Shown here: in pieces, positions 1,331 through 63,759 of the stretch | Position numbering within the stretch: the stretch's first letter is position 1 | Layout: every line of letters starts with the position of its first letter | From: Balanoglossus misakiensis | Taxonomy: Eukaryota > Animalia > Hemichordata | Assembly: GCA_040954595.2 (NCBI GenBank) | Contig: CM082593.2 | Location: 124,001 to 188,000, forward strand | Reading direction: 5' to 3' | DNA length: 64,000 nucleotides | The notes under the pieces: model-generated | Database searches by the model: none | Told to the model about the DNA's origin: nothing | The model's input: the letters and a program-made list of their open reading frames with translations, nothing else | Program-made: the position numbers and the translations under genes

Positions 1331-4300
1331 GTGCTGTCTTTGCTGTCCATCCCAATTTCTACAGCAACGAGCAATAATTTCAGCTTTGTGAAACAGAATC
1401 TGCAGAAAATAAAACATTCAGAGGTTATATAAAGCAATCTTTTGACATAACAATCTGATTAAAGTTTGCTAAAATAATCTGTTTGGTTCGTATTGCATGG
1501 TAAATCAGTCCTATACACTTGTAGTATGCATGAATACAGCCTGAAAGTGTAGAAATATTCAAATTTGAAAAATAGCATGATTTGATGTGAGGCAGCGTCA
1601 AAAAATAGCTGTGATAACTGTTCTAAATGTTGTACTTTTTCTTGCGTAATAAGTATTTGAGTTGACTGGAATCTAATTAAATTTACAATGGAATGATTGA
1701 TGTAATCACGATGATCATGGTATCAAGGTTAGTAATAATTCCTGCCAGAGAAGCCATGACCAACTGAGGTTTCATGACTCGTTCTCTTATTTAAACGTTA
1801 ATGCTCCGCTGTAATTGTTCTAGTGAGAAACCAACTTATGTTCCCACAAATATTTTACTTACTCTGACACATCTGTGAAAGACATTCCATTGAATGCAGG
1901 TGATAGGTATTCTGTGTACATTTCATTTCCACAACCAGCTAAGTAATGTTTTTGCCAAGTGTCCTTATTTATCTGCAAATTTTCACAAAATGATTACGGA
2001 AAAAAAATCAGTGGTAGACACAAAAATAGAAATTGCAGCCACACTGTAACAACATTACAGTACAGGAAAGTATGGGAGATGCCGTGTATGGGTTGAATGA
2101 CAAACAAATTGAAAACAAAATGGTGACAAGTATTTACTGAATGACTTGGTAAAGAAGATTTGTTTGTCAACAATGAACTTCAGTGGTTCAGTAAGTATAG
2201 TGGTAGTCAATAACAAGATGAGTGTGTATGCTTTTGTTCATTGTTATTGTTGTGCATGTATAGGCACGCATATTCAGCATGTGACACAAAGCTTGACACA
2301 AGCAATGTAACCTGATTCCTCAAATGATTGGGCTTGTAATACACAGTGCTTTCAATTCGAGATGCAAGCGACAAAAATCTTCAGCTGCTAAGCAGTTAAT
2401 GTCCAAAGTGATTTGTTCTTGTGTGTCATTCCAAGATTTAAAAGTGACAGGTTGAAGGTGGTAGAGGTCAAAGCGTTGGCAAACATCAGTGACTACATAT
2501 CCATTCAGAGCCAAGATAATGGTTAGTACAACTGTGCAGGTCATCAAGGTATTGTCTACAAGCAGGTGTACATACTCATCATCTAATAATCAGGAAATTT
2601 AGTTAGTTACCATTACAATATACACCATGCTGTTATTCATATTTTCCAATAAAAATCTAAAATCTATCAATGTTAGTATGTAAAAAATACTATTGCTTTT
2701 GAGGGTTTCTTCATCTTCTAATTATTTGCATTCTTAGAGGAGAGACATTGTCAGTAGCAAATACTTTTTATTTTATGCAGGTATGAACAGACAGTGGCAT
2801 TATCCGTATCTAGTTTAGCAGTTGAAATATTCATCCTCTGATTAACCCTTGTATGGTAGCTTTATCCAGGCGTGGGAAACAATTAACACCAGAAACAATT
2901 CTCTGATCAAGTGAGCTCCACATTAATGAATTATCATTTTATATGGTAGCTACATGAACTACAAATAAATCTAATCTAATTTTATATTCAAATGGAATCT
3001 TCTATACAGTTTACAATACTCAATCACTAACCCATTTCACCGATTTTGACTGGCAGTCCTTAATAATTGTTGGTTAAATGTTGTCAATATTTTCAGTCTT
3101 TGCTGGAGCTTATTAAAGGTAAATGCAACAAAAAATTTTTGCGTTTGACACATTCAAACAGTGGACTGCCTTCACTTCCTTCCATATTTTGGGTGCACAG
3201 TATAAGTAGACTTTAGTTTTTTCCCTTCTTCGTCCCTTCTTCTAACTTTTCCCAATCTTAGACATAAACTACGGTCGCCACCATCTTGTCTGTTGTTAGG
3301 ACAGCACACTGCCTTATGGCATTGACTGTATACAATCTTGTAATGCTCGTAAGACTATTGTCACCCTTTAATAAGCATCGTGCCAGAAATATTGCTTGTA
3401 AAGTTGACAACATGTGCTATCCCACAGATAGGGAAATGCCACTGTGTGATCAACACTGACAATGATAAGAAATTATACATCTATAATTAATACACATTAA
3501 AAAAATCTATGTAAAGTTGCAGCGCATACTGATATGATACCAAAAAATAAAATAAAAAGCGCAATTCACACAATATTAGAACAGAAGGCAGAGAATTACT
3601 AAAGGCAACAGAAAACCATGCAAGAAATAAATGAGAGCAGATAAGATGGGGTCAGTGAAAGGTCAGTTGTGGAAGAGTAAAGAATGATTTTTTTTCAATG
3701 ATACACAATGGGATTATGGGAAATTTTTGATGTAGAATGGGTTTTTATAGACAGGTGTTTGGATTATTTTCTAAAAACATGGTTTTCATGAACACATCAA
3801 CATACTAGCTATCAGGGTGTGGGTAACTTAATGCTTGATGAGGGACTGTTAACGTTTCATTGTTCTCATTCTTACATCAATAATTGCGGATTACAGAGGG
3901 CCTGAGAGAGGTTGGGAGAGCACAAAAATTTGGGTGACACTATATACAAACAGTGTAATTATTAATATACAAAAGTGGATTTTGCTTTCTAGTGTGACAT
4001 GCATACACTTTTGATTGTTCTTTTGTTCTCTACACTGTGTAATTGATATGGAACATGACTACACTAACAGAAATGATATGTGAAATTTATACTAAACTGC
4101 AATCATCAATGATTAACTATCTGACAAATTTACACCACATAGATCAAATCTATAATGCTAAATAAAACATCTTAAGAAATATCCTTCTTTCTGACTGCAA
4201 TAATATTTAGCCATGCTTTCAAACTGATCTGCTACTTATTGTTAAAGTCTCTCATTCAATCTCTTTGGAACAAAATTGCAGAAAATAAGGCCCATAATAC

Positions 4301-7300
4301 ACATTCCAGAATTAAACATTATTTATATGGTGTCAAAATTGCAGTCTGTTATACACAAACACTTCAAAATTATTATGATTTTAAAAATACCAACAAGACT
4401 TTTCAAAGTCTTAAAAAAAATGGTTACTTAATGAGAGACATTAACACGTCTAACCTCTTTGATTCTAATGCTTACTTTTCCAAGTAACTTGGCCTTAACC
4501 TTGCTGCTCATAACTCGAAAACTTTTTCCCAAAGTTTTGGTCGATCTGCCTGAATTCCTCTCCACTTTCTTATCCTTTTCCTGTCTTTCCTTGTCTATTT
4601 CCTGGTTGTTTTCTGCCGAGTACTGACTACACCTTTCTTCCATGCACACACTAGATGATGTTTCTGATAGGTCCAGTGAGTCTGACAGAGATGTCTGTGT
4701 CCCTAAAGTAGCTAGCTTTGCTGGTGGGGAACTCAGCTTGTCCTGACTCTGAAACTCAATGTTCTCCTCTTCAAGTGTGTTCATTTGAATCTCATCTACA
4801 ATACTTAAATTGGAATCAGGTGCTATGTCTGGCTTTGGTTCATCATCATCTCTTTCCTCAAACTGTAAGCAGGTAAAATAGACTAATCAGAATTACTGAC
4901 TGCTCCCTACATGTAATTCCCTAAGCTACTACAGACTCTCTATTGCAACAGCTATACAACTGCTACGCAGGTTTCCCAGGGTTTTGCCATTAATATCTAG
5001 GGCTGGCTGAGAATGAGATGCTTTGAGAGAACATGTGTTTTTGGGAAAAAACTCACATATCAGTCAGATTTGGACATCTTGTAAACTGATACACAATAAA
5101 CATCTGCAGTCAATTCCAGTTGGACAGGACATTGAGAAGATAAAGTTGGAAAGCTTTTACACATGCTGTCAGTATTAGTATTAAAAATATTTTCTTGTAT
5201 TCATATACAGTCACAACTTTTTATTTGACATTTTCAGAAAAATGTTACGTTTTATTTCATAGAATTAAATTTAACAAATTTCGTGCATAATTTTGTAACG
5301 TAATTGTTTGATGTGTTGGCATCTCACAGTCAACCATCCTTAGAATATAATTTGGTTATGTGGTGCCCCTTAAGCATGTCAACTACTACAGTTGATGCAT
5401 TCCATGGAGGATCTTTTGGGGACAAACCTGTTTTCCTTTCCCATTGCTTGGTTCAGCTTCTTCGGCCTTCATGATGGGGGACAGAAAAGCAGTTAGAGTT
5501 ACTCAGAAAAAAGGGCAAACACAGCTGCGTTTGAAAATAAAAGAAAGTTAGGCAAGTAATGAAAAGAAGCCCAGAGAATATAAAAGAAGTCATAACTACA
5601 GTTACTGATATTTTTTTCCTTTGGACATCAAATCTTAGAAGATTATCGTTAGAATATGTGTTCTGAAATTAGAATGGTGGTACATGTACCATTAGCTGAA
5701 TGAGTTGGCTTACATCAGATTTCATACACCATTAGTAAATAAAATAACTGAAAAACAGACCATTGATCAATCCAATGATAAATCAAGACTACACATCCAG
5801 CATTTCAAAAGAATATATGACAAAAAGAAAAAAAAATCACAAAATATATTCAGAGATGTTTTTATAAACTGATATAAAAATGACACAGTCAATTCTCAAA
5901 TTAACATTGAGTAAAACAGTGTTTTATATTGGATAAAAAAAGACATGGTTTTGGCAATATTTTGGGTTGTTTTGAAGCTGCAAAAAGAAAGTAAGGATTA
6001 AAGTTTAATAAGAAAAAATGAACAACTTGCAAAGGGGAAATGGGGAAAATAATAATAATGGGGAATGCTGAGGAACCAGCATAGGAACAGGGAATTGTTT
6101 TGGGTCTTTTGTAAAACAAAAGTACAAAATTGGCAGAAGTTAAATTACAACATCCTCTTGAAACTCTTGAAAGGTTGAAGAAGAAAAATTGTTAGGTTCT
6201 TGCTGAGTTTCTCACCTCACTGTTTGACCTCATGGCAAACAAATTGGCCATAATGGTAGAAAAGCCCGGAGCCAGACAACTTTGAGCGATCAAGCCAAGT
6301 TTCAACTCTGCAATACAGATCACATCATCACCTTCACGCCAATTCCAACTTGGAATATTCAGGAGATATGCCTGTGAAAATGTAGATATAAACCAAACAA
6401 TGATTTCAACAAACCAACATTTTTGTGTAAGAATGCTATCGACATAGACGAGTATGCTTTCAGATTATTTGACACATTTTCTATAATAATTATCATTATT
6501 ACAGAAAAGAAACAGCCATGAAAGGCGGAAAACTTCACATACTGCATGGCAGAATATTTTGATGCCAGTAATCCAGTTTTGGTGTTTATTGAGTTATATA
6601 AGTTGATCGACTGACTGAACATACTAATAAGATTTTTCACCTTGTTATGGTATTGTAGGAGTTGTACTATGGTTCGTATTTTCGGATGGTAATTTTTGAT
6701 GGAAATTACTCTCATGATATTGGCAGCATCCTCTTGATCAGGATCATCACAGTACTTGTTAGCAAGTACTAAGCATGCATCTGCATTCTTTAGCTGCAAA
6801 AAAAAGTTAACTGCTGTTACCTAATGGAGTTCTGTCATAAAATAATTTCCAGCATCAGAATTGAATACAATTGTATGGAACCCAATTCATTGTCATTGAC
6901 TTGACAAATATTATGTAAAGCATCACTAAACTAAGCTCTTGGGTTCTGGTGTAAATAAGCTTAACTGGATTGTAAAGTTACCTAACATGGATATTACTAT
7001 TGAAATCAGTACAATGCTTTTTGTGAACAAAGCAGAATGTAAAAATCACATAGGGACTTACCCTAACTCTTTCCAGATCTGTGGAATCTAAGACAGAACC
7101 TTGGAAGAACTGTAAGTGTGTAAAATGCCTCTTGAAAAAAGCCTCCAAGGCAAGGTCTGGTTCAGCACTGAAACATGAAAATTATTACAATATATACTCA
7201 TTCTGATTTTAAGACATCTCTGCCATAATGTCAATGCTGAATTTCTTTAAGTCCTTTTCACTACAATCTATTTTTTCCTACTTTGTGTTGTACTCAGAGA

Positions 7301-10300
7301 ATGTATTTCAAGGTACTCTTACACACACTGTGACAGGCGCGCCTGTTTAACGTAAGCTTATTTATCAATACATCTGACTTTATGTAAAATACTTACTTGT
7401 GAAGAAGTATAACTTCCACATTGACATCATCTCTGTCTTTATGAAGGAAATCTTTGATGAAGTTTGACACAGATTCATAGGTGATATGACCACATAATAC
7501 CACATGTCTGCAAAGAAGAGTGTGGAAAATATTTGTATTGTAGAGTCAAGATTGCTTCAATCTGTGATTTCTATATCACCACCCTACCATACACTCAGCT
7601 GGCTGTCTAGGCATAATGTCAACCCCAAATCAAGTGAATCCTGATTGCTTGCAATAAGAATCTGTTGCTGGACACAACTCTGACAGACTGCATCGAGTCG
7701 TAAGAAGAAAGAGCACACAGCACCCTCGAGCATCATAACTTCATGTAATCAATAATAACATAACTATAATAACATAACTTAGTCAAATAATTCTTACTTT
7801 TTCCCACTTTCTCCACTGTATGACCCACCATATTTTCTTCTCCCACCAATCAGCTCCATAATTTCTGGGACATAGCTTGCAAACATGGCCTATTGTTGGA
7901 AGAAGTAAATGTAAAGTCTACCACTTTTTGCAAATGAAGGTAAATATCTATTTTGACATATACCACTAGTCCAGACTGCTCTGCATCAGTGACAGAGGAG
8001 CTCACAAGTGTTCAACAAATGTGTCCTTTGTTAAATTTTCAAATAATAGTTGTTAAAGAATTGGTTGATTATTATTTTTCTAATTTTTCCACCAAGTAGG
8101 TCTCTAGATAATAAAAATCACAGAAAGCCAACATCAACCAGAAATCTAATCAAGAAATATAGTAACTGAATCTTACCAAAGCACCCATAATGAAGAAAGT
8201 CATAAATATTCTACCCATCGTGGTTTCTGCGTAAACGTCACCATAACCAACAGTTGACATGGTAACCATTAGTAAATAGACACATAGCCAATAGGTCATA
8301 TGCTGAGCATTGGCAAACTGTTCCCAGGGATCTCCTGAGTTTTCAACCTAGAAAAGATCACGAAAACTTAGCAGTACTTGACTCCATGTCCATTGTCCAA
8401 TTTCTATCTATTTTCGTATTAAACATACCTTATCTAATACTCTCAATTTGCCATTTCATTAATGCTGATTAATTTTCAATTTATCTAATAACAAACAAAT
8501 TTGTAAAACTGTTAAAATTTGTTTAACATAAGTTAGTAAAAGCCAGGGTTTTTCATTATCAATGGGTTTTTTTCTGTACAACCACAATTATAATTCTATA
8601 CATACCAAATGTATAAAACCTGCAGCAGTTAGCCAGATACTGACCAATGTGCAGCACAAGTTGGCTAATTTTATTGAGTTGCTTGTCTTTAAGATGGTAA
8701 GAAACTGCATAATTTCTGGCAGCTGCATTAGCCTTAATGCTCTCAAGAATCTGAGGCCTGTAAGGAAAAAATCAATTTGTCAAAAATTAAAGAAAACTAA
8801 TGATCCTGACACTATGCAGACATTTTGAAAAGGAAAAGGGGAAAAGATTATTGTGTGGTGTGATTCAGTACAAGCAGGTACCTGTAATGCATTTCTTTGT
8901 GGGTAATATGATTTCTTATTGTATACCTCATTTGTGTGTCTTTGTTAAACTCTACAGGGGAAAAAGTGTCAGAAAAGTTGTCATTACCTGGTATACTTCA
9001 CTGACTTTCAGTGCAAGCTTGAAGAGACAGCCAACATATTTTACATGTCTTGAATGCAATGATTTTACATGAACATTGAGGCTTGTAATAAACAACACAA
9101 ACCTGTGATGTGCGACTTACCTAGCCAATGCCTCTGAAGATAAATGGACACAAAAATTGGCGGAATGGTAAAGAAATCTACCAGAGAGTTTAATTCTAAC
9201 CAAAACCATAATCTGTCTGTTGCTGCAATGAACTGAAAAAAAAATGAAATCAACATATAAGTTTTAGTGGACATTCTAGACTCTAGGTTATATTGTATTG
9301 AAGATTAGCATGGCTATACTACTATTTTACTATGTTTATTGTCATACAGTGTAACTGAAACAGGGGACTGTCAGAAGTCCACCACATTTTCACACAACAC
9401 ATTTTCTAAAAATTGTGCCTCAGTACTTTTGGGATGTTAAGTACATACAGTTTATACTTGGTCTAATACATTGTAAGAGGAAGGAGTACGTATGCATCAG
9501 GTAATGTGACTTACCCGTAGACCAAAATAAAGCAAAAATACCAAATTAAAACCAAGATCAATCTGCCACACAATATCTTCTGCAAGATTAAAGCATCTTT
9601 CTATTGGTCTGTGAAGTAGAAAACATGGCATAATATTATTCAACAATATATACATAAGTTGTTGCTTTAATTTCAGATTTCAAAAGTGGATAAAATGCAA
9701 GTATATCAGATTTACTTCGGTAAGTCCTACTGAAGTTGGTGCGGCAAGACATTTGTGTGAGGTGAGATATTTAAGTCACTGACAACGCACAACGCATAAC
9801 CCAAGAAACCAACATATATCTATCAACAGCATACTGTTAAGGAGTTCCTTTCCAGACATAAGTACATTTAGGAACAGAACAATCATAGCCTAATAGATAC
9901 CAGACCTGAAGTAGTGTGTCAGTCCAAGGTTGCCTGTTACGTGATTTAACCCTTTCACCCCAAGTTCCCTCCATAGAGTTCCAATGGGTTTGGTCTGAAC
10001 CATGGTGGTGAAAGGGTTAATAGCCTAATGTAACCAATGTGCCAACAAAGAGCTAGATCTTATGTAAGCACAGTTAACGGAGAGTCAGAACTGTGACTAA
10101 GGTTTTCCTTAAATGGACACAGTCTCTCACTTTTGTGACTTTATTTTGGTTCATTTTGATAGTTTATTTTTGTTGTTTAACTCACAGAAATATTACCGCA
10201 ATGACCTGCTTTTCCAACTCAGCTCACAGCAAAACATTATCATGATACTAACATTAACAATGTTTGGTAATGTATCGACCAAAAAGGTTGCAAGACAAGT

Positions 10301-13300
10301 ATTCTATAAGAAACTGCACATAAATTTACTCTTTCAGGTGATGACTGACTTATAAAGTGAGTTCTAACCTGGACAATTTGCAGTTCTGCAGCTTGATACA
10401 TAGATGCCCTTCCTATGTGAGTGAGTGACTAACATGTTTTATCACAAAAATCAAGAGGTTATGCACAGGACAATCTCTCAATTGGTGAAACTGAAAATAT
10501 CTTGCTTTGATTGACTGAGAGGAAAGCAAGGGTTTTATCAAATGAAACTGTTCACCAATCAGACTTTATGTACCGACAAACCTTATGGTCATTTTAAAAC
10601 ATTCACTGTTGGTAGCAATTGTAATTGGACAAAATGACATCGTTTTATAGATACTTACTCAGATGTCTGGTAAATGTAGATAATGACTGACCCAACACTC
10701 AGCAAGAATATCACCAGAACCTACAGTTCAACGAGTGGATACACACAAGAAAAAAAAAGAAAGAGAAAAAAGAACACTAAAATCTAGAACAATCATGCAT
10801 ATATACCAGAAACATGCAAATTAATCCACAAACTATACAAGGACCACTGCACCATAGGAACGTGATCACCACCAGGGAGTACTAAGGGGCATTGTGCATG
10901 TGTACATCAGCAGCAATGATTGGCATATACTTACAGGTCTGATTCAACCAAATAGAATACAAAAGATGTTAAGCTTAGTGATAAGCAAACAACCACCTGG
11001 CAGATGCATAGTTGGGGCAGATGAAGTAAAAAGAGAAAACTACATTAGTAAATAATCAGATAAAATGACAAGTTGCTTCCATATTTTGCTTAAAATGAAA
11101 TCTTACATTTGAACAGGAAGCAGCTGAAAATGTGGCCTAGTTTATCATCTCTATTTCAAATTTCTTTTTAAATTAATGTTAGGATATACTGGTTGTTAAT
11201 TGCCAGTTGATATTTACCAAAAAAATTCACAATACAGTAACTATGATAACTTTGAGGACTTGTAAGGCTTCCGTTCCTCGGCAGGGTTTCCTTGGGGTTG
11301 ACCGCTTCCATTTTAATACCAGGTTGATTACATATATATGTGTTGAACACACATACACAGGATATTAACTCAACTTGAAGTGAATTTAGGCTTTCTGTGG
11401 TGTCCTAGCAATGGCAATAATCACCAACCACTCATCAGGAAGTGATCTCTCCACACATCATGAATATGTTTTTGTGACGTCAATGCTACAATGTTTTATT
11501 AAGATTCTGTTCTGTTTTTAACTCGGATCTCAATAGATGGTTACACATTGCAGTTATTATGGCTTAGCATCATTGGTCTGAACTCATGCTACAGTCACTG
11601 TTGAGGAAACTCCCTATGATTAAAAACTGGCCATTGCCTATAAAACGGTGTCACAACAAGCTTAGTAGAAGCATCTCTTCCAAGGGAGTGTGAAAAAATA
11701 GCTACCATAGATACATGTACTGTATTGGTCATGTCTCATAGTGCTGCCTCATATTTAGCCAGTACACGTTACAATTATCGTAATGTCGCAGATACACTGA
11801 TCTCAGGTTGAGTTGTGTATGACTTGATCACTATTTTATAATAACCACATATTCATCAATTATACCTCTATAACTATTTTGTCTTTATGAAATATGACCA
11901 ATGTGTTATCAATTTGTGTTCTGCTGTGGTACAAAGTGTATCCGAAATATAAAACCTTATCACCAAGAGTTTCGATTCTGTAGTTTGTCTTGGAGCGATT
12001 AAAAAAGTAATTCAACAGAGCAGGAAGAATAGAACCTGTTTCCTAGCAACTAATGGGATATTTCAAGGTGTAACTTTCCAGATATTTTGTAATAATTTGG
12101 TTACTGGTACTCATGAAAGTAAACCAAGCTTTTCATAAGTTTTTTAACACTGCAGGGAACTGCCTCTATGCCATTGGAACATAGAAAGCCTTTTGACTTC
12201 AATTTTTATTATTGAATTTCACAATTTATACCACCTGCAGCATAAAAATAATGCGCTACTACATTTTTATCCTTGTTTTTGCCATTGAAATTGTAAATGA
12301 AAGAAAGACCTTTGTTTTTGACAACTGATGGGTTTTTCCATTGGTTTGTTGATTCTGCTTAATTTGGGGAAGCGTAATGAAAATCTCAAGCAGAGAAAAA
12401 ATAGCACCATCAAAGACACTGTAATCTGTAAACCCTTTTGATCAGGACTGGTACATTCAAATGTGCATTATACCATGTCAGTTAAATATATGGTCTCATG
12501 TTGATCACTTTCAATCACACACCCTTTCCATAAAAGCATTTCTTTCCCATTAGCAGTCCTTTACCTTTCACTTTCCAATTGTAAAGTCCTGCAATTTCTA
12601 AAAAAATCATTACTGTTGAAATGAATGTCAGTGCATTCTGTTCATTTTACAAAAGCATGAATCACAAAAGAATCAAACTTTACCAAGGTGAAAAAGATAT
12701 AAATATTCTTTGCACAAATGAGCAATTACTCGTACCAATGTTCATATTGTTTCTCATGGGAAGTGGCTCCAAGGCAACCACCAAATTTCAATAGATAGCT
12801 TACTTTGAGATTGAAAGGAGAGTGTACAACAACAAACATAATTATACTGTATTTGGAACTATCAAATCAATACGCACCAAGATTTTTTTATACAAAAGAG
12901 AATACTATTTGATCAGTAAATTTAAAGAAACCATACACTTTCAATGCAGTTATTAAGCTATGATTTTATCGATAGATTGCCATATATATATGAACATGAA
13001 TGGTTAAAACACACCACCTCTGAGATTTTTGACACTGAATGTTTCTTTTTCAATTGCAAGCACTGAAGCAGCAAGTGATAAAGTTTTCATGCTGACAAAA
13101 CCAAACTGGAATTTTGATTAATTTCACCCATACATGTTGTATTTTGGCACCCACGGTAATACAGCCGAAGGGATTGTTAATATACAAAATGTACAATTAT
13201 ATATTATGTACTCTGATTAGAATGTGGATTTGTAAGCTTATATAATGGACTTCATTAACATACACATGTTCATTTAATTCTAGTTTATAATTAAGCAATA

Positions 13301-16300
13301 AAACACCCCCAGCCATGGTATACCACTCGATTTTGACCAGTTCACGACATATACGCACGAGCGATAGCGAGTGCGTATATGGAGTTGAACTGGTCAAAAT
13401 CGAGTGGTATACCATGGCTGGGGTGTTTTATTGCTATTATATTATGCCAGTATATTGAAACTTTGCATAAAACATTTTTAAAAGGCATTTTCTTTGACTA
13501 TGATATATGACTGTGGTATATGGCTAATATATCACGGTCACGTGTCATGTCTCGACCAATCAAATAGCGTGATTTACACCATCAATATACTGGTATAATA
13601 TAATACATAAACAATACATAATATCAATAAGCCAGTTTCATTTTTATAGAATATAAAACATGTTAAATGAAAAGACTGAAACTTCACATATCAATATTTG
13701 TTTTCAAATGTCAAACTTACACATGCAATATTTTAATGATAAAAAATTAACACTATGAAAACTTGTATCAAAATTGTGTATTGAGGCCATGTATTGCAAT
13801 CAAGATAATAGTCAATTTCATCTTCTCTGAAGTAGCATGTGTGTCAATGAGAATTTATTGCATTACTACAGTCACATTAACTGTTTCAATCAATATCAAA
13901 GTAAAAATAGTGTGATCATCTTAAAATAGAAGGTAGTCACATAAATTTTCCATTAGAATTGCTGTTAGTATAAGTAACAGTGAAAATGACATGATATCTA
14001 AAATGAATTGTACATGCTACATATTAATCTTGCACGTCTAGCAAAAATAAATTAATGTAGGATCCATCTTTGAATTTTATAGTGAACAAAATATGTATAA
14101 CTCTCAGCAGGATAGAAATTTTCAAATTTAAAATGAATCAAGTGGGGATGTGAAAGGTATTTTTGCCTTGTGGTATTAGACAAAATTTCTATACAGTATG
14201 CCAGGTTACAGGCACTCTTCTGGGGCATTCTGGAGTTTTGTGATACTTAATGAGCAGACTCAAGGTCTTTGAGAGAGTGAGGCACGCACGGCTTGTAGAA
14301 ATGAGAACACATCAGATTTTGTGTTCTTTCTATGTACATGTACTGTAGCAGTCTGGATACATCATTTGGTTATAGGCTTTAATTATCCCCTTGATTGAAT
14401 CGTGAACAAGGCCCCAGATGTTGGTCAAACATTAAAGTTGTTTGGATATTTCACCTGATAGGCTCATTCATAATATGAATATGATATGAAGGTGTACATT
14501 CTGTCTATATAATCATATGTGCATGAAATCAGACTACATGTAGCAACATTCCTCTGGTACAGAAGGGAACAATTACAATCCATGCCATACATGTAATTTG
14601 TTCATTTCATGACATGTAAATTATTGTAAAATGTCACCTGGTTATAATCAATTGGTTTGAATTGAATTGAATAAAATATAATATAATATAAAAATGAACT
14701 GATTTGAATTGAAGAGAATATATGCGCAAAAATATCTTTACACTGAATGATTCATGTTGTCGACCACTGTTCAAAACAAGATGAACACATTTCTCATAGT
14801 TGACTTTTCAGTCACCCAATTTTTTGATACAGCTATTATAAGTAGTTAAATCAATTACGTCAAGGTAGTTTTGTGATTATATAACCACATGTATGGATAT
14901 CACAAGTTATTTGCTGAACAGTAGACTGTAATTAACTCACAAAATCTTCCCATTTTAATCTTAGTTGGGACAAAAATTATTAAAAATTTCATTGACACAT
15001 TTAAATATGTACTGCCTGTATGACAAACACAAAAATCAGTGCAGCTCAAGTGTTGCCATGGTAGCTGGCAGTTGTGAATTAATTAAATATCTGTGAAAGC
15101 AAAGACTGAACATTGATGATTAAAACATCTTACAGATAAAAAAATCATATTTTTCATGTTGTGCAACCTGAATCATTCAATGTAAAAATACAGCCACAAC
15201 AACGGTAATGCTACATTTTCATGGACTGGTTTATACAAGGCCATACAGTCATTATGTAAGAGAAATGTTTGCTTTAATTTTCTTTCAGTATTTTTTTATT
15301 TTTTCATTAATCCAAATTGGATGACTGGGAGTCAATTTCCATCCATACATGTACTAGATGTAGCTTATTTTACCAGAAGCAAAATTAATTTGCTCGATTG
15401 TTTGAAGTCAAGCTACAATTAAATATTTTAATACAGTCTGCTTGCACTTTAATCTGCATGACCACAGTCAAAGGTCAACCTACATGTATGATCAGGGTCG
15501 GTCAAGTCATGAGTACACTGTATGAGTACACTCCGCTCGTTGGATGTGCTTTTATAAGCAAAAATGAAAAGATATCTTACAAGTATCTTCTCTATTTAGG
15601 TCACATGCCTTCTGTGTACTCTTCCATAATTCATACCTTATACAGTAAATGTTAGCCTATGTTAATTTGATTGTTAGTTTGGGAAAACTCTTTTTTGAGT
15701 TAATAGATTTTACTCAATTCAATAATCCATTTCTCTCAACAAAAAGTATAAATTTTGTCTCATTTTGATTAACCACAATGGTTGTTGTGTTGTCGATTGG
15801 AGCTGTAGAAATCCCACTTAAAATAAAATATTAATTCAGCTTCATAGCAGGTGCTTATGAAAATGACACCATTATTAACCCAATTGTAAATAAGATTGCA
15901 CAAATTAAAAGCACATAAATCATTCATGTAAACGTAAGTTCACACTAATATATTCTCTGAATTTTTTATCAAATTGCATTTCACACAGAATATTGCCGAA
16001 TAAAAAAAATACACGATACAGAAATTTGTAGCTTGTGAATTGATTCTAGACAAAATGATCAAGTAACAATTTGTAAAAACATGTTGTTACTTTGCATCAA
16101 TTTGTACTATTAGACCATGAATGGACTGCATTGGGAAATTAAATAAATCCAAGCCTTTCCATGCTTCATTATACTTGTTCTAGCGTATATTACTCTGGTA
16201 AGATTAGGAACAGCTACACCATGATACATGTTGCTGTCTTGCTTTTAATTTTATTAGACAATCATTCATAGTCATTTACAATAAAATATATAAAATTGTG

Positions 16301-18981
16301 GATATAGTTTTGGCTCAAAATTACAAAAAGCAGACTGTGCTTACATCATTTTCAAAGCATGTTTGCTATCCAGACAAGCCATGCCTTTGAGTTAATCAGT
16401 AGTAGATCATAAAATGTAATTATCCTCAACATAAATTAGACTTTGAGGTAAAAAATACATTTGTATATTTGTTAGGTTTTTAAAAAATATTTTAAAGTCA
16501 TATTTTATGGTTGTGACTATCAAAGATGCAGGCAGTCAGATAACATATCTTATCTATTTCATGTTTCCTTTGTAACTTACATGGACATTCATAAAAAAGA
16601 AATGTTACCAAACATTGAAATGTACACACATGTCTCAGTATTAACATATTTGAGCCAAGTCACAATTTAGGTTGCAAATAGCTGTTAATACCCCCATTTA
16701 ATTTTCATCATAATGATTAATACAGCATGGGGTTTAGCACACTTGCCTATGGTCAAACTGATTTAATAATACATGTACCTAATTATTCAGTACTTTCATG
16801 TTGGAGTCAACAAGCCCATTCCGAAACCTGAAAATTCTTGATTTTTATTCAGTTTACCAATTAGCAAGATAATGTATTTTTTTTGGCAATAAACTATAAT
16901 GTATATCATTATCAGATTGACTTAATTTCATAACACCAAACAGATAAAATAAAAGAATAATTAAACTAAGGAAGATCATGTGGGCTTGTGGGAGTTTGAT
17001 ATTAATTGTCAGGAACGTCACATTGGCACAATGACAACCAAACAAATGTTTGACCCGCACACACATAAAATACCTGACTGAATTCAGAAATTTAAAATTA
17101 ACAACAGATAACTGTAACACGACAGGAACCAACAGAGGAATTTAAGATGGAAGCATTGGGCCAGGGGCTTATTACATTGTTATCTACAGTACAAAAATGA
17201 TATTCTAGAGCTGAACAATTTACATTTCCAAAGGTATCTCACTAGATGTGAATATTTTTTCTCTGCATACCATGGAAACGGCCCCTGCTATGATGTTCAC
17301 ATTGACTATTGGCATCAAATACTGTAATAATACTATGGCCACTATTGATAATTCACCAGTTTCCAAACAGACAACATACAATCATTAACATAATAAAAAA
17401 TTAACCATTGAGTCCTTTTCAAACTACATGTACAAGATAAATAATTATCATATTATGCATGATTCTTTATCATCTACATCACACTCTCATACACAGTAAA
17501 TAATATAATTACTAAAATTAGAAGAAATAGTAAAACTTTTAAAGGTTATCACAAAAATAGTATACTGAATATTTAAATTTCAAAAATCACACTTCTTTAA
17601 TGTTTAGTATTAAAATTGTACACCCTAATCAAAATGTACAGGATTGGTTGGCAGCCGGTTACACTTAACATTTCTAATTATTTTTTTATCATATGGATGG
17701 ATTTTGCTATATTTGACGTTGTTAAAATGTTCATTATTTACTTGCCAATAAAATATTTCACTCATTCTGTTTTCCCTGATACCAAACACTGACCTTGACC
17801 AAACCTACAGAAGCTGTTATCCATCTACATATTGTAAATACAATGAATGGTGGAGTCCTATTTTAAATGTTGTATGTGTACAAACTACATGACCATCCTT
17901 TTTGAAATATATCTTGTGAAAAGCCTTACATAACTAATTCAACAACAGCATTCTCTACCAGTAACCTTCCCAGTGTTAATCCCTGTCTATGCTAATTAAA
18001 AAAACCTGCTGTTATCATTTATTTACTGAGCGAATCCATTCTCGTCACCATGTACATGAATATACGAATACAGAATAATAACTGCACTATCTACATGTAC
18101 ATACACAGTTACACTTGTCTTTCTAATTTAAAGTGAAGTCAATCATTATGATAGACGATTTTTAGTGCAAACACAAGGACTGTACCAGAAACTGGTTAGA
18201 TACAAAAATATGACGTATTTTATATGATTTATTTTAGTGTTGAATATAATTATAAATTTGACATTTTCAAGTTAATTATAGCCCGTGGATGACAGCTATA
18301 TCCCAACCATATCTCTGGACGATTTCCGTATTATTTTTTTATCAAAAAAGGAGAGATATTCTCCCAATTACCATTAAAATATTCATTTAGATGCTAAGTA
18401 TACAAAAGGATCTGTGTAGGGTAAAACATCAATCGACTGGTGATCTATAATAGCAGCGTCGCGCGCAATATGGCAGCAAAAAGAGTTCAGAGAAAATACA
18501 CAGCTTGCATGCCTGGGAAATAAAATAAAAATTCTAATCAACTGTTTCACTGAAAACTAACAGTAGAACAAGCCAGGATATTACGAGCCGTTTGAAAATG
18601 TATAACACGTCAGAAATGTTACAAGGAATGTTGCAACTGTCTTACCAGGATCCTGCCACTGATGGTTTGTGCGGAAATCAGGCTGGCGGCCCAGTCCTTG
18701 ATAGATGTCATCCATCCTACTTCACTTTCTGAATTTTTGAAGATGGCACTAGAACTCCCGGTCCCTTTTGAGTTCCCCTGTAACGCACTAGGAGCTGCTT
18801 CAACCTTACTTCTTCGGAAGCACACGTATGTAAAGAGTCTGAACAACAAAATCAGCAATAGTCCACCGAAAAATGTTATCAAGCTTGAACTCAGAAAAAT
18901 ATACCATTTTCTTTCCAAACACTCGGGGTATCCACATTCTGTGGCTTGACACTCCGCTGGAGTGAGGTTGGCATATGACAT
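1331..18981 (-). CDS. KCNMA1: Calcium-activated large-conductance potassium channel alpha subunit (Slo1/BK), 5' part; gene continues past the left edge
   Basis: GT-AG exons with compatible phases: 18646-18981 (S0, [20 protein letters not shown]), 10659-10720, 9515-9608, 9121-9232, 8606-8757 (S4 [11 protein letters not shown]), 8177-8347 (pore TMSTVGYGD), 7798-7889 ([10 protein letters not shown]), 7397-7507 (DFLHKDRDD), 7062-7167, 6641-6793 ([27 protein letters not shown]), 6216-6371, 1863-1972 ([17 protein letters not shown]), 1331-1399 (CFTKLKLLL). All motifs are diagnostic of Slo1. RCK2 and the Ca2+ bowl are not in the window. Confidence 0.97.
3113..3371. mobile_element. Possible non-autonomous TTAA-flanked DNA transposon (Kolobok-like MITE)
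   Basis: Ends read TTAAAGG ... CCTTTAA (inverted termini with TTAA); interior slightly more CpG-rich than the surrounding intron. The termini are short, so this could be chance. Confidence 0.35.
4476..4862 (-). CDS. Candidate 387-nt in-frame cassette exon of Slo1 (129 aa, acidic/Ser-rich then basic)
   Basis: ttacag|TTT GAG GAA AGA GAT ... CTT GGA AAA|gtaagc; open for 129 codons in the same frame as ORF 4428-4784; phase 0-0 matches the host intron 1973-6215; composition is typical of a disordered protein segment. Confidence 0.68.
5428..5466 (-). CDS. Candidate 39-nt in-frame cassette microexon of Slo1 ([13 protein letters not shown])
   Basis: Minus strand reads ctaactgcttttctgtcccccatcatgaag|GCC GAA GAA GCT GAA CCA AGC AAT GGG AAA GGA AAA CAG|gtttgt: branch-point-like CTAAC, pyrimidine tract, phase 0-0, purine-rich body, no stop. 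Confidence 0.5.
8177..8347 (-). CDS. KCNMA1: Slo1 pore exon (turret, selectivity filter, S6 start)
   Basis: Translates as [57 protein letters not shown]; AG acceptor and GTAAG donor. Confidence 0.97.
9946..10020. mobile_element. Tiny TTAA-flanked MITE (piggyBac-like ends)
   Basis: TTAA-CCCTTTCACC ... GGTGAAAGGG-TTAA: perfect 10-bp terminal inverted repeat starting CCC with TTAA on both sides. Confidence 0.7.
13286..13604. mobile_element. Non-autonomous foldback element (long 5' hairpin plus second inverted repeat)
   Basis: Near-perfect hairpin 13294-13435 (agcaataaaacacccccagccatggtataccactcgattttgaccagttca and its reverse complement, loop cgagcgatagcgag); second inverted pair 13436-13458 / 13582-13604; gtcacgtg...ccaatca motif near the 3' end. 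Confidence 0.8.
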
Positions 18982-20243
18982 TTTGTCACAATTTGTAAAT
19001 TTTAACAGTCGACCGCCGTAGTCTTGTCTAGCCCTATCCTAGTCGCCCCATTTTACACACTTTTTGTCGTTCGTCCAGCCTTGGTCGGTCGGGCTTGCTT
19101 GGTTGTGTGTCCGTTGCTGATATCAACATGAATATTAATGTAGTAGTGTATGCTAATTAGATGATTGATGGCGACAGGTTCATTTGAGGTTGCGTTAGGG
19201 GATTTCTTGAAATGTGCGCTTCATATTAACTACCCGAAATTAACGCTATTAGCACGCATATCTTAGCATGATCTGTTTATGAAAAATGCAAAAGTCTTTG
19301 GTTATCATCTGTCCGTCGATCTGGTCGTTCAAATGGAAGAAAATACATCCGTAGAGGGCGCCTTGGATGATATGAGCCACATAAGGTCATTTGACATGAC
19401 CTGGTTGTGGTCATGAGAAGCTGCTGTCATGGTAACACAAGTTATGTTTTAGGGTGCTCATAAAATAACCAGATATGAACTGTCAACAATTTTCTACGGT
19501 ATAAACTTATTCATTTCCTGATATTCATTACAGTTGAACCTTCTAAAAATGTTCACAGTGAAAATTTCAGAGTTTTAGTTTTGCATAATGATCATCTTCA
19601 GTTTTGGGCAGTCTAGGATGTAATAGAAATCTGTATTTTCAAGCCGTGGATGATTGCCATAATTAGCCTTATAAATTCAGAGCTCCTACATCAAATTTGA
19701 TGAAAGTTGCTGGATAAATTGTTTTTACATGAAAGATGCCACTATTCAGTTCAACTGCAAAGTTACATTTCTAAAAATTATCACAGTTGATAAAACTTTC
19801 TACTACGTTTGCTTGCCAGAGTCTAACAGAAGTATAATATTCTCAGCTTTTATCATTGACAATAAACTTCAAATTGGTAATAAATATTTTTAAAATTGCC
19901 ATACAACTTACTGCACTGAATATCATTGACATAACAGAGATCTACCCGTACTATGTATTTAACCAATGACACAGGTTAGCTGCACATTTTCAATGATTTT
20001 TGAAAAACCGTAATTGCTATTTTTTGCCATTATTGCTATAAATGTGAATAAACAAGAAAACTATTAATATTTGATGTGGTTGATAGCGTCCCGACTGACG
20101 CAACTGTTTCAGGCTGTACGTAGTCTGCGGTACATATCGCCCTCTGGAGTGCATCTGAGGACAAAGGGTAACAGGTCATTAAACGTGCAACCAACCAGAA
20201 ATAAACAAGTTTCCCCAAACGTATTTCCGGGTTTACAGGTGCA
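18982..20243. promoter_or_regulatory. Divergent (head-to-head) promoter interval between Slo1 and PLA2G12
   Basis: Start codons 1.26 kb apart on opposite strands; CpG-richer patches next to each gene start; two CTCF-like motifs (19347-19362 plus, 20136-20151 minus). Transcription starts cannot be placed. Confidence 0.6.
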
Positions 20244-21988
20244 ATGACGAGGTCTGTTGTCGATTTCTTCCTCTTATTTCTCAGCATTTCATCAGTTTTT
20301 GGAGGCCAAAGTGGACCCGGGACCGATTACTTAAAGCAAGCTGCCGGGGGAATAATGGCCGGTCTTGAGAAGTTGGAAGGAATGCTCGATGCGTTTCAGA
20401 GCGTAACAACAAAGTGTGTTTACAAATGTCCAAACGGTAATTACTAGATGATCTAAGTTCGTTACCAGCCACTTTCATTATTTTTTTAACATGAAGTATT
20501 ATCTAAAGACAAGCAAGAAGGATTTGCGATGCATGCCAACCGAATGACAGAATTTCAAGTCCGTTTCCATGGAATCTGCGAAAGGGCTTGCAAGTTGCAG
20601 TCCTGACCTGTGTTACCCGGGAAAAACAGGTCCAATGGGCATGGATTCAATACATATTATATATTCATGAAAGCTATAGGTCAGGTGCACCCATCCACCA
20701 GAGTTTGCAGTGCAGGTTTTTTATCATTTCCATTAATTTCCCATAGAAATTAGTTAATTTTTTTTAAATGTACCGTAATATCGGTTAAGCGCCCCCTATC
20801 GGGCAAACGCCCGAAAGAATTTGTGACACATTATGTTGTTAGGTACGGTATGCCCACAACTCAATCTAGAAACACAACTGTTTTTGTTTTCTCCTAAAAA
20901 CACCTATTTCTAATTTCTCAGGAGCCATGCCCACCAGAAATCCTGATCACATTCCAAGCTACAATGGTTGTGGTGCTATGGGATTGGAAGTAAGTTACAC
21001 ATAATTGTGCGAACTGTTTCACTGAAATACTGGTATTTGCTGTATTTTTTCACTTTGTAGAAGAATAAAATCATTTTTGGATTTGACATATTCAACCCAG
21101 GAATCTTGAATAGTCTTTTTCCTTTAAATCTGCAACTTTATTTACACATTGTACAATAAGAATTTGATATGTACTGGAAGGCAATACTGGTACATTTGTC
21201 ACAGAGAAAATACACCCTTTATTGTTCAGAGTATTCATTTTCTGATTTTCTAGCTTGTTTCAGATGGCCTTCCAGAAATGACAAAATGTTGCAATAAACA
21301 TGATATCTGTTATGACACATGCGGTGCCAAAAGAAACAAATGTGATGATGATTTCAACAAATGTTTGCAAAAGATGTGTAAGAAATACAAAGACAAGAAA
21401 AATATGACAAAAAGACAAAATGAAGGTAAGTCTCATACTTTTGATATGGTTATCTTTCAAAAACCTTTTCTCTTCCACATTACTGGCCAGTGGGTATGGG
21501 GCCAAAGGCACTGCTGAATGTGGACTGATCTTAACTCCAATAAGTGAAATAATTCTTGCACGATTCGTGACAGATTTTGATTGAATTGTTATGTTTTTTT
21601 TAACAAAACAATCCGTGATAAACTTCAAAGATAAAAAAATTACAGAAACAATGTATAATATGGCCTAAAAATTACAGCATTTAGAAGAATAGGAATGTAT
21701 CATGGTAAGAACACAAAATTTCCATCATCAGAACATAAATCCATAATTAAAATTAATACTACCTGCAGAAAATGTATTTTTCAAAAATGGTTAATGCTAT
21801 AATATGTGCAAATGTAAAATTGAAGCTGAATGTGTTCTATGTTTATTAACATATTTTTCTTCTCAATTTTCACAGGATGTAAAAATATAGCAGACTTGAT
21901 GTCAGCTGGTACAATGGGTCTTGGCTGTAAGGCCTACCTTGATGCACAAGAACAAGCATGTATTTGTAGAAAGAAAGATGAATTTTGA
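20244..21988 (+). CDS. PLA2G12A: Group XII secretory phospholipase A2 (XIIA-like, catalytic His-Asp intact)
   Basis: Four exons 20244-20436, 20922-20989, 21254-21425, 21876-21988 join in frame: signal peptide, CVYKCPNG, NGCG Ca2+ loop, MTKCCNKHDICYDTCG active site, GLGCKAYLDAQEQACIC, ends KKDEF-stop. It is a co-ortholog candidate of vertebrate XIIA/XIIB. Confidence 0.93.
20771..20850. mobile_element. Possible degenerate Tc1/mariner-pogo type MITE in PLA2G12 intron 1
   Basis: TACCGTA ... TACGGTA inverted ends (TA plus CCGTA) around a short CpG-rich hairpin-like core. Confidence 0.35.
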
Positions 21989-23817: not shown

Positions 23818-26800
23818 CTAAAAATAAAATGGGTTGATTGCATGAATCAGAGAGTTATCAGTCTAAATTATCCAGATGAACTACTAATATATCTGTAGGT
23901 TTTGATGGGAGAGGGTTTTGTGGTTGCCAAGAGTCTAAATCGTCCTGATGTACTTTTACCAAAGAATTGAAGTCAAGAGAGTTGAGGAATGAATACATTT
24001 TATCAAACAAACTGACGTATGCTACATAATGGCTAACTTTGATCTCTTTAATACATACCTGCTCCTCATAAATAATTTTACGAGTGAATGTGGTTTGTTC
24101 TGACTGTGGGTCAAGTGGGGATATCCAATTATCAACCATGGCGTCGTCATTCACTTTATCATCACTGTGAATTCAAGCAAAGCATCACATTGAAGTCATT
24201 TGTCTCGATCAAAGGAACCAAATTACATTGATAAAATGTAAAATCTCAGGACTTTTCTCTTCCTGATATTTACTTGTCACAAATGCTATTTTTTGTATTC
24301 AAAAAGGTTCAAGATCAATTTTAAATGGTTGCATAGAGTTTTACCCAAGTTTCTAAAACACTTTACGATACGTACAGTCAGACGTATATCATTGACAGCA
24401 GAATCAATAACATCGCCAACCAAATATTACTCATTTATGTGCTTTATAGAAAGGAAGATACCCGGTACGTTATGTTTCCAGAAAGAAGAACAAGAAATTG
24501 CATTTGACACACAAAGAAAAAAAAAACATTGAAAAAGATAACCAAATTGAAATAGTAATTTCTCCGCGAGGTTTACACATGCAAGTATTGTTCTAATAAA
24601 GAATAGTGGATATAAAAATACTACTCACTTAAGTGACAAGTAAGGGTTTTCGATAGATGACATTCTCGTAATTCTGTCCCAGTATTCCTTTTGCTCAAAT
24701 AACTTCCTCTCACTCAATCTGAAAACAGAAATGTATACATTTAAGCCAAGTGAATTCAGCATGCATGTAGTACTAGCTTGAATGCCAGGCATTTTGTACA
24801 GTGGCCCCAAAAAGAATCAAACCAAAGAGAACTGTAGTGAAGTGTCAAACAATCAAAGGAGACACATTTAACACTGAATAATTACCTATCAGAACAAAGG
24901 AGATAGAATATACCAAGTAGGCTACCACACATGATCACCATTCCAGTCACCAAAACAGCAATTTCAGTTGACGTCATTCTGTTTTGTTCTTTCACAATCT
25001 TTCCACCAATTCCAGAAAACTCGACAACATTCCAATAAAGACTGAACTCCTCAAAAGTGTTGCTCTGTCTGCGTTTTCGTGTTATCGATTGCCTACAAGG
25101 AATGATAAGATAATAAACAACTGTTAACAAACATGGTGGAGGAGATATGCTTGAGATGACCACTTGTCTTAGTTGGCTTATTGACGTTATTTTATACAGT
25201 TGATTGGCAATGTTGCCTTTGTCTTGCCATAATAGCAACATTGTAAATTTAATATTATCTATGTTAGATATATTCTTGACACTAGTAGGATCGAGGAAGC
25301 TGTTTTTGGCTGCTTACAAGTGAAAACACATGGACGATTAAAACAAGTTGTTTACATGACTGCAGTTTTTAATTTCACAATTCAGGTGGCACATATTGTA
25401 TGACTTTTGATATATACCAAATAAAATGGTGCTTCAAAACCATGAAAACAGAGAATTAAGCTGTCCAATATGTGGCCCAAATCAATGGATTGAAATATGC
25501 AATAACTTACCCTTCAGAGAGTTTTAAGAATTTCTTGAACGGTAGTACCTGGTAGGTTTCAGGGTTTACAACATAGAACCACATGTCAGTTCTGAAAAAA
25601 TGCAAAGATGTTATCAATGTATCAAATGATGTACAAGTAGATTTATCATTAACCCTCAAAGTAGCACCCCCTTGTAAATGATTAGGCAACATGTACTAAA
25701 AGTACGTCCCATGATTTTGAGACCCAACCAAATGTGAGTTTATAATTTATGATATGATACAACATAATACAAGGTAATAAAATTAATAATTAATACATAC
25801 TGATCAGGATTAATTATGCCTTCTTCATTTCTAGGTGCTACAAGAAACACATTAATCCACAGATTTGTCAAAGCTTCTAATTCCCTACCAATAAAAAAGA
25901 AGATATTAGTATATAATGTTACTTACTTGTTTTGTTGAAATTATTTCATATGCAATAAACAGTTTTTTATTCTGCGCAAAGATTAAATAGGAGTAACTAG
26001 GAAAGCCGTTAAGCCTATTGAATGAGTAGTTCAGGATGCTATACTCATGCATACTACCTTTTAATTGTTTCCAAGTTCTTGCTAATATTAGCATTACTTT
26101 GTTTCGACTCCATAATGCAGTAATCATATACGGTCAGAATATGGATCTGCAAGATAATGATATGTTGAAGGTTATTTGGATGAGAAATGCACAAATTATA
26201 TGCATAAGACATAAAACACATGCACTACTACTTATTGTGATAGCTTCCAACTCAGATACTGAGTTACAAAATGAATACCACCCATGCAACTTTTTAGCTC
26301 CCATTTGGTGTATATTTATATATCAGAGGGAGTAGTAGCAGAAGTGACTCTTCTAAAGCCAATTTGTGTAGCCTTAAATACAGAAAGGTTACTCACAATA
26401 GCCTGGGTACTATTGCTTCCTTCTAGACCTGTGCCAAGTACATCATGTGCTTTCACGTCAAGAGTGAACTGCTCACCAGCAAGACCTCTCAAAATTGATC
26501 TAGCATATACATCACCAGTTAGGCAGCCAATGTCAAATCTATCATCGACTTCATCAACATAGTAGCAGAGTTCTTCATTTATACCAATATCTTCATCATA
26601 ACCCTGCACAACCCAATCAGTAGGTTCATTAATATAAAGTACAATAACTTGAACTATTGGGAAGACTTGGGCATTTGATAAAGACACACTAAACAGATAA
26701 AGTTATGATCAGAACCATTTTTTTTTTTGCCTTTTAAACTCTGACAGGGTAATTACATTCCCTTTCAATGGGTGATACACTTTCAGTGAAGTGATCAGTT

Positions 26801-61556: not shown

Positions 61557-63759
<2,203 letters not shown>

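What the first reader, a model, noticed from the sequence alone, without database searches (positions are those of the whole stretch)
4476..4862. Large in-frame exon that would insert 129 aa into the RCK1 Ca2+ site of the BK channel
Seen: the 4.2-kb phase-0 intron between ...LFAMRSNSE (6216) and [19 protein letters not shown] (1972) holds a 387-nt stop-free segment with good splice sites and phase 0-0, encoding an acidic/Ser-rich then Lys-rich disordered peptide ([12 protein letters not shown]...[12 protein letters not shown]). Known: in mammalian Slo1 this junction lies between M513/R514 and E535, which shape the RCK1 Ca2+ site; the familiar large inserts such as STREX sit further downstream in the RCK1-RCK2 linker. 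Inference: a lineage-specific splice switch that retunes or disables one Ca2+ sensor. If the 4475 donor is read through, a stop at 4428 would give a channel truncated in RCK1.
Basis: partly seen in the sequence, partly recalled or inferred. Interest (0 to 1): 0.8.

Follow-up and report, generated by a model that had tools for sequence, protein, structure and literature searches.

The report
Giant insert beside BK calcium sensor
A BK potassium-channel gene, likely from an acorn worm, holds a stop-free 387-base stretch with splice signals that likely acts as an optional exon; it would add a predicted floppy 129-residue loop next to one calcium sensor, at a spot where gene models of related animals already carry shorter inserts, so it would likely tune the channel rather than switch the sensor off.

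Summary
Observation confirmed. Segment 4862-4476 (- strand) is 387 nt, stop-free and AG/GT-bounded, in the phase-0 intron of a Slo1/BK gene close to Ptychodera flava. It scores as coding only in the channel's frame, only between its splice sites; 0-2 of 2000 null introns matched it. The junction is human K518/I519, in a loop four residues past the Ca2+ ligand R514.

The site is not lineage-specific. A 13-aa microexon in the same intron is identical in Ptychodera and Glandiceps models, 11 of 12 echinoderm species carry 6-70 aa here, and a 3-aa microexon sits here in protostome-type contigs; 26 amphioxus models carry none.

The 129-aa exon has no homologue in five searches, and no RNA run was listed, so splicing is unproven. 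Best reading: a young, likely tissue-restricted cassette adding a disordered acidic-then-basic loop that tunes the RCK1 site (0.5). Main rivals: trafficking-defective isoform (0.2), unspliced remnant (0.17). 'Disables the sensor' is not favoured. The scan had not noted this elsewhere.

The parts
4476..4862 (-). Candidate 387-nt phase 0-0 cassette exon, 129 aa: residues 1-89 acidic and Ser/Thr-rich (net -17), residues 90-129 basic (net +9); predicted disordered
   Evidence: splicing not shown
4455..4475 (-). Possible 21-nt in-frame extension to a second donor at 4455 (136-aa form)
   Evidence: donor score 6.0 vs 6.1
4428..4430 (-). Stop codon reached if both donors are read through (truncation in RCK1)
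   Evidence: nearest poly(A)-like hexamers are far off, at 3372 and 2772
5428..5466 (-). 39-nt phase 0-0 microexon [13 protein letters not shown], alternative in Ptychodera models
   Evidence: identical in 19 of 25 full-length P. flava models seen and in the one Glandiceps model
6216..6371 (-). Upstream constitutive exon (human 467-518), ends in helix G and the M513/R514 equivalents
1863..1972 (-). Downstream constitutive exon (human 519-555), holds the S533 (here Gly) and E535 equivalents
1973..6215 (-). Host intron, 4243 nt, phase 0; same intron position in fish-like, protostome-type and other loci
7397..7507 (-). RCK1 exon with the intact [10 protein letters not shown] motif (D362/D367 equivalents; numbering recalled, not mapped by a call)
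1331..18981 (-). Slo1/KCNMA1-like gene, 5' part: exons 18981-18646, 10720-10659, 9608-9515, 9232-9121, 8757-8606, 8347-8177, 7889-7798, 7507-7397, 7167-7062, 6793-6641, 6371-6216, 1972-1863, 1399-1331; the rest lies beyond the window's start
10935..10996 (-). Either-or alternative to exon 10720-10659 (S1 region), same length 62 nt
   Evidence: 21 of 21 residues identical to P. flava isoform X2

Best explanation
The 387-nt segment is likely an optional in-frame exon of this BK channel gene that would place a predicted disordered 129-residue loop in the helix G-helix H linker of RCK1, beside the RCK1 Ca2+ site, and would likely retune gating while leaving the channel working. Shown: the segment is stop-free, phase 0-0, has splice sites in the range of the gene's own and a coding signature confined to it; the junction maps to human K518/I519; database gene models of related animals carry 6-70 aa at the same junction. 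Inferred: that it is spliced in, probably in few tissues or stages, alone or after the 13-aa microexon. Inferred: the fold survives because this loop takes natural inserts and no ligand is removed. Inferred: the effect runs through R514, four residues upstream, whose backbone carbonyl binds Ca2+, so loop length and charge would shift the Ca2+ dependence of opening. Most speculative: the basic, amphipathic last 30 residues with four S-x-K/R motifs would bind anionic membrane or a partner and be released by phosphorylation, working like STREX but from another site.
For: Exon anatomy and nulls. Coding score in the host frame only, starting and stopping at the splice sites. At the thresholds of these two segments, only the conserved microexon and this segment pass in the whole intron. 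No antisense candidate longer than 240 nt among 15 in the window. Junction mapping; R514 in the G-H linker and ligand list: PMC4319557 and bioRxiv 10.1101/2022.12.15.520511, passages. Natural inserts at this junction: 2 of 3 hemichordate and 11 of 12 echinoderm species, up to 70 aa in Lytechinus variegatus, 65 in L. pictus, 57 in Amphiura, 50 in Apostichopus; with- and without-insert models side by side in six genera. 9-nt microexon in 11 of 11 protostome-type loci of one class whose whole intron was held (about four distinct lineages). P. flava models already carry a 94-aa optional acidic insert in RCK2. Disorder, charge split and amphipathic moment up to 0.59 at residues 100-117.
Against: No homologue of the 129-aa peptide. 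It is absent from all 25 full-length P. flava models seen (of at least 34; X1 and eight others unseen) and from the 1 Glandiceps and 2 Saccoglossus models, although the window's other two alternative exons match P. flava at 100%. It is nearly twice the largest natural insert found. In human Slo1 none of 12 GFP insertions in RCK1 reached the surface clearly; the nearest, at 512, gave very low labelling (PMC2266602 Table I), though none was in the 514-522 loop. The inserts in other species are automated gene models, not characterised channels. No electrophysiology exists for any insert at this site in the papers I found.
Confidence: 0.5

Rival explanations
1. It is a real cassette exon, but inclusion breaks RCK1 folding or the RCK1 Ca2+ site, giving a subunit that is held inside the cell or responds to Ca2+ through the bowl only; it would act as a brake on BK current, possibly dominant in mixed tetramers.
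For: 0 of 12 GFP insertions in human RCK1 gave clear surface expression (PMC2266602). The insert is 129 aa against at most 70 in other species. It starts four residues after R514.
Against: GFP is a folded domain and was not placed in this loop. Natural inserts of 36-70 aa stand in the only or main model of several echinoderms. No ligand is deleted. No R-x-R or acidic dileucine motif in the insert.
Confidence: 0.2
2. It is not spliced into Slo1 mRNA: a remnant of coding sequence (decayed exon, piece of a mobile element or of a nested gene) or a chance open frame with usable-looking sites.
For: No homologue anywhere; not in the relatives' models seen. One of 24 homologous introns from other animals had an even longer stop-free AG..GT stretch (L060).
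Against: Frame, length and both ends fit the host gene, which a foreign insert would do by chance only; 0-2 of 2000 nulls match; coding score ends at both splice sites; no Pfam or Rfam match and no second copy in the window. A genome-wide repeat check was not possible.
Confidence: 0.17
3. It is an alternative last exon, or its donor is often read through, so that translation stops at 4430-4428 and yields a channel cut off within RCK1, or a message sent to nonsense-mediated decay.
For: The frame stays open for 15 codons past the donor and then stops. The donor score, 6.1, is in the lower part of the gene's range. An out-of-frame donor at 4652 also scores 5.5.
Against: Two in-frame donors are available; coding score turns negative at 4475; the first poly(A)-like hexamers lie 1.1 and 1.7 kb further on.
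Confidence: 0.08
4. It is an alternative first exon from an internal promoter, giving a soluble C-terminal piece of the gating ring that starts at one of its three Met codons.
For: Three Met codons in frame. P. flava has models that hold only the C-terminal half of Slo1, though they start further downstream and at another locus (P0122, P0134).
Against: A strong acceptor with a branch-point-like motif, and coding signal that begins at the acceptor, 26 codons before the first Met.
Confidence: 0.05

Closest known systems
Mammalian Slo1/KCNMA1 STREX insert (59 aa, site C2, RCK1-RCK2 linker)
   Same: Optional in-frame insert in the BK cytosolic domain that changes regulation by kinases and membrane association (PMC4141542, passages); BK splice inserts are mostly disordered (PMC3984161, passages).
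   Different: Other site (linker after RCK1, not the G-H loop); no sequence likeness found; this insert is twice as long, has 2 Cys and no PKA consensus. The human isoforms listed in PMC3984161 have no insert at 518/519.
Nematode slo-1 RCK1 either-or exon (Brugia exon 14, isoforms a and f; C. elegans site A, recalled)
   Same: Alternative splicing in RCK1 with a measured effect on the channel (PMC6779273, passages). The exon is 37 aa, the size of the exon just downstream of this junction (110 nt), so it is likely the same exon (inference; sequences not compared). A Brugia read holds both copies (PMC7704054, passages), which would lengthen the same region.
   Different: A swap of a duplicated structured exon, not the insertion of a disordered loop; no second copy of the downstream exon was found in this window.
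Echinoderm and hemichordate RefSeq Slo1 models with cassettes at the same junction (e.g. XP_070544695.1 Ptychodera, XP_041486016.1 Lytechinus, XP_071828785.1 Apostichopus)
   Same: Same junction, same phase, low-complexity inserts, often with a skip form alongside.
   Different: 6-70 aa; no sequence likeness to the 129-aa peptide. Automated models; I found no paper on them.

Membership tests
Slo1 / KCNMA1 (BK) channel gene | S0-S6 membrane domain followed by RCK1, with BK_channel_a match | tested here: met
   PF03493 E 5.7e-14; best solved-structure matches are slowpoke/BK; exons align in order to P. flava Slo1
Slo1 / KCNMA1 (BK) channel gene | RCK1 Ca2+ ligands D367, R514, S533 backbone, E535, S600 backbone | tested here: inconclusive
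   R514 and E535 equivalents present, Gly at 533; [10 protein letters not shown] present (numbering recalled); the S600 equivalent and the Ca2+ bowl lie outside the window
Alternative cassette exon | AG/GT ends with scores in the gene's range, length a multiple of 3, no stop in host frame | tested here: met
Alternative cassette exon | Coding-type base periodicity in the host frame | tested here: met
Alternative cassette exon | Inclusion and skipping junctions in RNA | not testable with these tools
   no run listed, so no reads could be laid
Alternative cassette exon | Frame conserved in related genomes | tested here: inconclusive
   absent from protein collections and from relatives' models seen; no hemichordate DNA among 70 loci fetched
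STREX-type insert | Position in the RCK1-RCK2 linker (site C2) | tested here: not met
   junction is K518/I519 inside RCK1
STREX-type insert | Cys-rich palmitoylated segment with a PKA site | tested here: not met
   2 Cys in 129 aa, no [RK][RK]x[ST] motif
Nematode-type either-or RCK1 exon | Tandem duplicate of the downstream structured exon | tested here: not met
   one copy only in tblastn of five relatives against the window
Transposon or nested gene remnant | Known domain, repeat copies, or own start and end independent of host frame | tested here: inconclusive
   no Pfam or Rfam match, no second copy in the window; whole genome not held

The most novel reading that the evidence does not exclude
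The G-H loop next to R514 is an ancient splice-programmed tuning port of the RCK1 Ca2+ site, used by protostomes (3 aa), hemichordates (13 aa) and echinoderms (6-70 aa) and left empty in chordates; this 129-aa exon is its largest plug-in and uncouples or resets the RCK1 sensor through a phosphorylation-controlled membrane tether, giving one gene a one-sensor and a two-sensor channel.
Probability: 0.2. Interest if true: 0.75.

Novelty: new variant of a known kind. Interest (0 to 1): 0.5.

Why it matters
BK channels read calcium through two sites, and how the RCK1 site is tuned and coupled to the pore is still studied mostly with point mutants. Engineered insertions suggested that RCK1 tolerates nothing (0 of 12 in PMC2266602). 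A natural series of inserts of 3, 13, 17-70 and perhaps 129 residues in the loop that carries R514 gives a ready-made graded test, and a candidate site for placing probes in RCK1. If the exon proves not to be spliced, the insertion hot spot and the conserved microexon still stand.

Tried and rejected
RNA: search for runs holding window 4400-6800, kind rna: none was listed; this is no evidence on expression, and no reads could be laid. Own genome: not held. Homologues of the 129-aa peptide: none among proteins of 227-2000 aa (326 candidates) or 70-226 aa (10 candidates); two weak hits among 1.84 billion representatives (E 6.5e-5 and 2.6e-4), both repeat-rich proteins without the Slo motif, set aside; none in metagenome contigs or the ESM Atlas; no Pfam family; no Rfam match in the intron. 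Relatives' DNA: 70 loci fetched with the junction peptide, none hemichordate-like. A second cluster look-up did not show the unseen P. flava isoforms. Fold of the Lytechinus protein with its 70-aa insert on a 20-row alignment: mean pLDDT 43, the junction region under 50, so it is not used as evidence and no fold search was run. Fold of the insert alone: pLDDT 58, pTM 0.17, one helix at 86-103, in line with disorder but weak as a single-sequence model. A conserved block in three other loci's introns (L046, L049, L052) has no splice pattern and looks like a repeat. The 'benign K518N' human variant (PMC11309989) was not used: that paper's numbering appears offset, so it is likely another residue. 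A calmodulin-type 1-5-10 pattern at residues 118-127 is too loose to count. Paper searches for a described insert at this junction or a hemichordate/echinoderm BK splice study (listings and abstracts' starts) showed none; subscription papers are mostly missing from the library, and no supplements were read.

Full report
Question.

The gene. The exon at 6371-6216 matches Pfam BK_channel_a and solved slowpoke/BK structures. Its closest named relatives are hemichordates and echinoderms. Exon by exon the window is closest to Ptychodera flava (first coding exon 95% identical, against 81% for Glandiceps and 75% for Saccoglossus), so the source is likely a ptychoderid acorn worm (inference). Thirteen constitutive exons read 574 residues without a stop; the gene runs out of the window after the exon at 1399-1331 (one boundary was off by one and was corrected). 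No whole genome is held.

The observation. Segment 4862-4476 is as described: 387 nt, 129 residues, AG and GT ends, phase 0 at both ends, in a phase-0 intron of 4243 nt. Its acceptor scores 9.5 and its donor 6.1 on a model from the gene's own sites (leave-one-out ranges 3.8-10.7 and 3.1-12.0), with a branch-point-like CTGAT at -28. At the thresholds set by this segment and the microexon, nothing else in the intron passes; at relaxed thresholds 15 candidates pass, of which eight are versions of this segment, one is the microexon and six are 12-36 nt. Nulls: 0 of 1500 simulated introns at the observed scores (32 of 1500 with no score asked); at the weakest real sites, 0 of 2000 Markov and 2 of 2000 block-shuffled introns. 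A scan of both strands found 47 sense and 15 antisense candidates of 150 nt or more, the longest antisense one 240 nt and inside a real gene. A coding model trained on 37 other pieces gives +33.6 bits in the host frame, -45.1 and -52.7 in the others, against a best of -12.8 for 387 overlapping intron windows; the signal begins and ends at the splice sites. Limits: the background was trained on the same introns, the segment was picked from 64 kb, and 1 of 24 homologous introns from other animals held a longer open stretch when no splice score was asked (L060).

Where it lands. The upstream exon aligns to human 467-515 and the downstream exon starts at 519, so the junction is K518/I519. R514 lies in the linker between helices G and H (PMC4319557, passages). 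[quoted passage not shown] The insert therefore sits four residues after one ligand and about 15 before two more. It removes none of them.

The junction is an insertion hot spot. I read the junction in all full-length models fetched. P. flava: 19 of 25 carry the 13-aa peptide encoded at window 5466-5428, letter for letter, and 6 skip it (two further models lack the region). Glandiceps 1 of 1 carries it; Saccoglossus 0 of 2. Echinoderms: inserts in 11 of 12 species, from 6 to 70 aa (Lytechinus variegatus 70, L. pictus 65, Amphiura 57, Apostichopus 50 or 36, Diadema antillarum 42, sea stars 15-26, feather stars 6-18; D. setosum none), with skip forms alongside in Patiria, Asterias, Acanthaster, Anneissia and Antedon. 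Amphioxus: 0 of 26. In the 70 metagenome loci the intron lies at the same place wherever both exons were held and an intron was present (24 of 29 loci examined; five were intronless). One class of protostome-type loci carries a 9-nt AG/GT-bounded microexon, ENV, in 11 of 11 loci whose whole intron was held; the pattern was drawn from six of them and they represent about four lineages. In nematodes a 37-aa RCK1 exon is spliced either-or and changes drug sensitivity (PMC6779273, passages), and one Brugia read holds both copies (PMC7704054, passages); by size this is likely the exon just downstream of the junction (inference). These models are automated and no function is known for their inserts.

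What is missing. The 129-aa peptide has no relative in five searches and no likeness to the other inserts. It is not in the 25 P. flava models seen, of at least 34; X1 is among the nine unseen. This counts against it, because the window's two other alternative exons match P. flava at 100%. No RNA run was listed and no hemichordate DNA was obtained. So inclusion is inferred from sequence alone; I put it at about 0.75.

The peptide. Residues 1-89 have net charge -17 and 19 Ser/Thr; residues 90-129 have net +9. A single-sequence fold gives no globular structure and one helix at 86-103. Residues 100-117 have an amphipathic moment of 0.59, and S104, S107, S114 and S119 fit S-x-K/R; there is no PKA consensus. 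P. flava models carry a 94-aa optional acidic insert in RCK2, so large charged cassettes are not foreign to this gene.

Mechanism. Most likely (0.5): a cassette exon that yields a working channel whose RCK1 Ca2+ response is shifted through the R514 loop, perhaps with a phosphorylation-controlled basic tether, working like STREX (PMC4141542, passages) but at another site and with no sequence likeness. Rival (0.2): inclusion spoils folding or the site. In human Slo1 none of 12 GFP insertions in RCK1 reached the surface clearly, the one at 512 giving very low labelling (PMC2266602, parts 2-3 of 6 read); but none was in this loop, and echinoderm models carry up to 70 residues there. Other rivals: unspliced remnant (0.17), last exon or read-through to the stop at 4428 (0.08), internal first exon (0.05). 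A fold of the sea-urchin protein with its insert was too poor to use.

Novelty. Optional disordered inserts in BK are well known (PMC3984161, passages). I found no paper on inserts at this junction or on BK splicing in hemichordates or echinoderms (open-licence library only, no supplements read). The scan's earlier notes hold nothing on this stretch; notes on other pieces of the genome also call it an acorn worm. Verdict: new variant of a known kind, interest 0.5. The solid gain is the hot spot and the conserved microexon; the large exon is a good candidate awaiting junction reads.

Noticed in passing
window 5466-5428 (-): 39-nt microexon, identical at the protein level in Ptychodera and Glandiceps models; one P. 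flava model (X3) pairs it with an acceptor 9 nt inside the next exon.
   Followed up: yes
window 10996-10935 and 10720-10659 (-): Pair of 62-nt either-or exons for the S1 region of Slo1; both match P. flava isoforms.
   Followed up: partly
L018:871-879, L022:2098-2106, L038:5418-5426, L040:3032-3040 and seven more loci: Conserved 9-nt microexon (ENV) in the homologous intron of one class of protostome-type Slo loci, with a synonymous GAA/GAG change.
   Followed up: partly
window about 20240-21425 (+): Group XII secretory phospholipase A2-like gene just upstream of Slo1 on the opposite strand (PF06951 E 1.2e-16).
   Followed up: partly
window about 23164-50934 (-): Multi-exon cadherin-repeat gene with a transmembrane segment near 24886-25092 and a last exon ending in AYTWF.
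   Followed up: no
window 58156-59322 (-) and 62100-62462 (-): Single-exon EamA-like transporter, and a piece of a MOZ/SAS (MYST) acetyltransferase gene.
   Followed up: no
P0122, P0134 (P. flava XP_070544736.1, XP_070544730.1): A second P. flava locus holds only the C-terminal half of Slo1, nearly identical to the main gene: partial duplicate or assembly artefact.
   Followed up: no
window 56568-56313 (-): 256-nt stop-free stretch with passable splice scores and no Pfam match.
   Followed up: partly
window about 190-320 and 50340-50530: Simple repeats (CAT/CAC triplets; a tetranucleotide run) that produce spurious long open frames.
   Followed up: no
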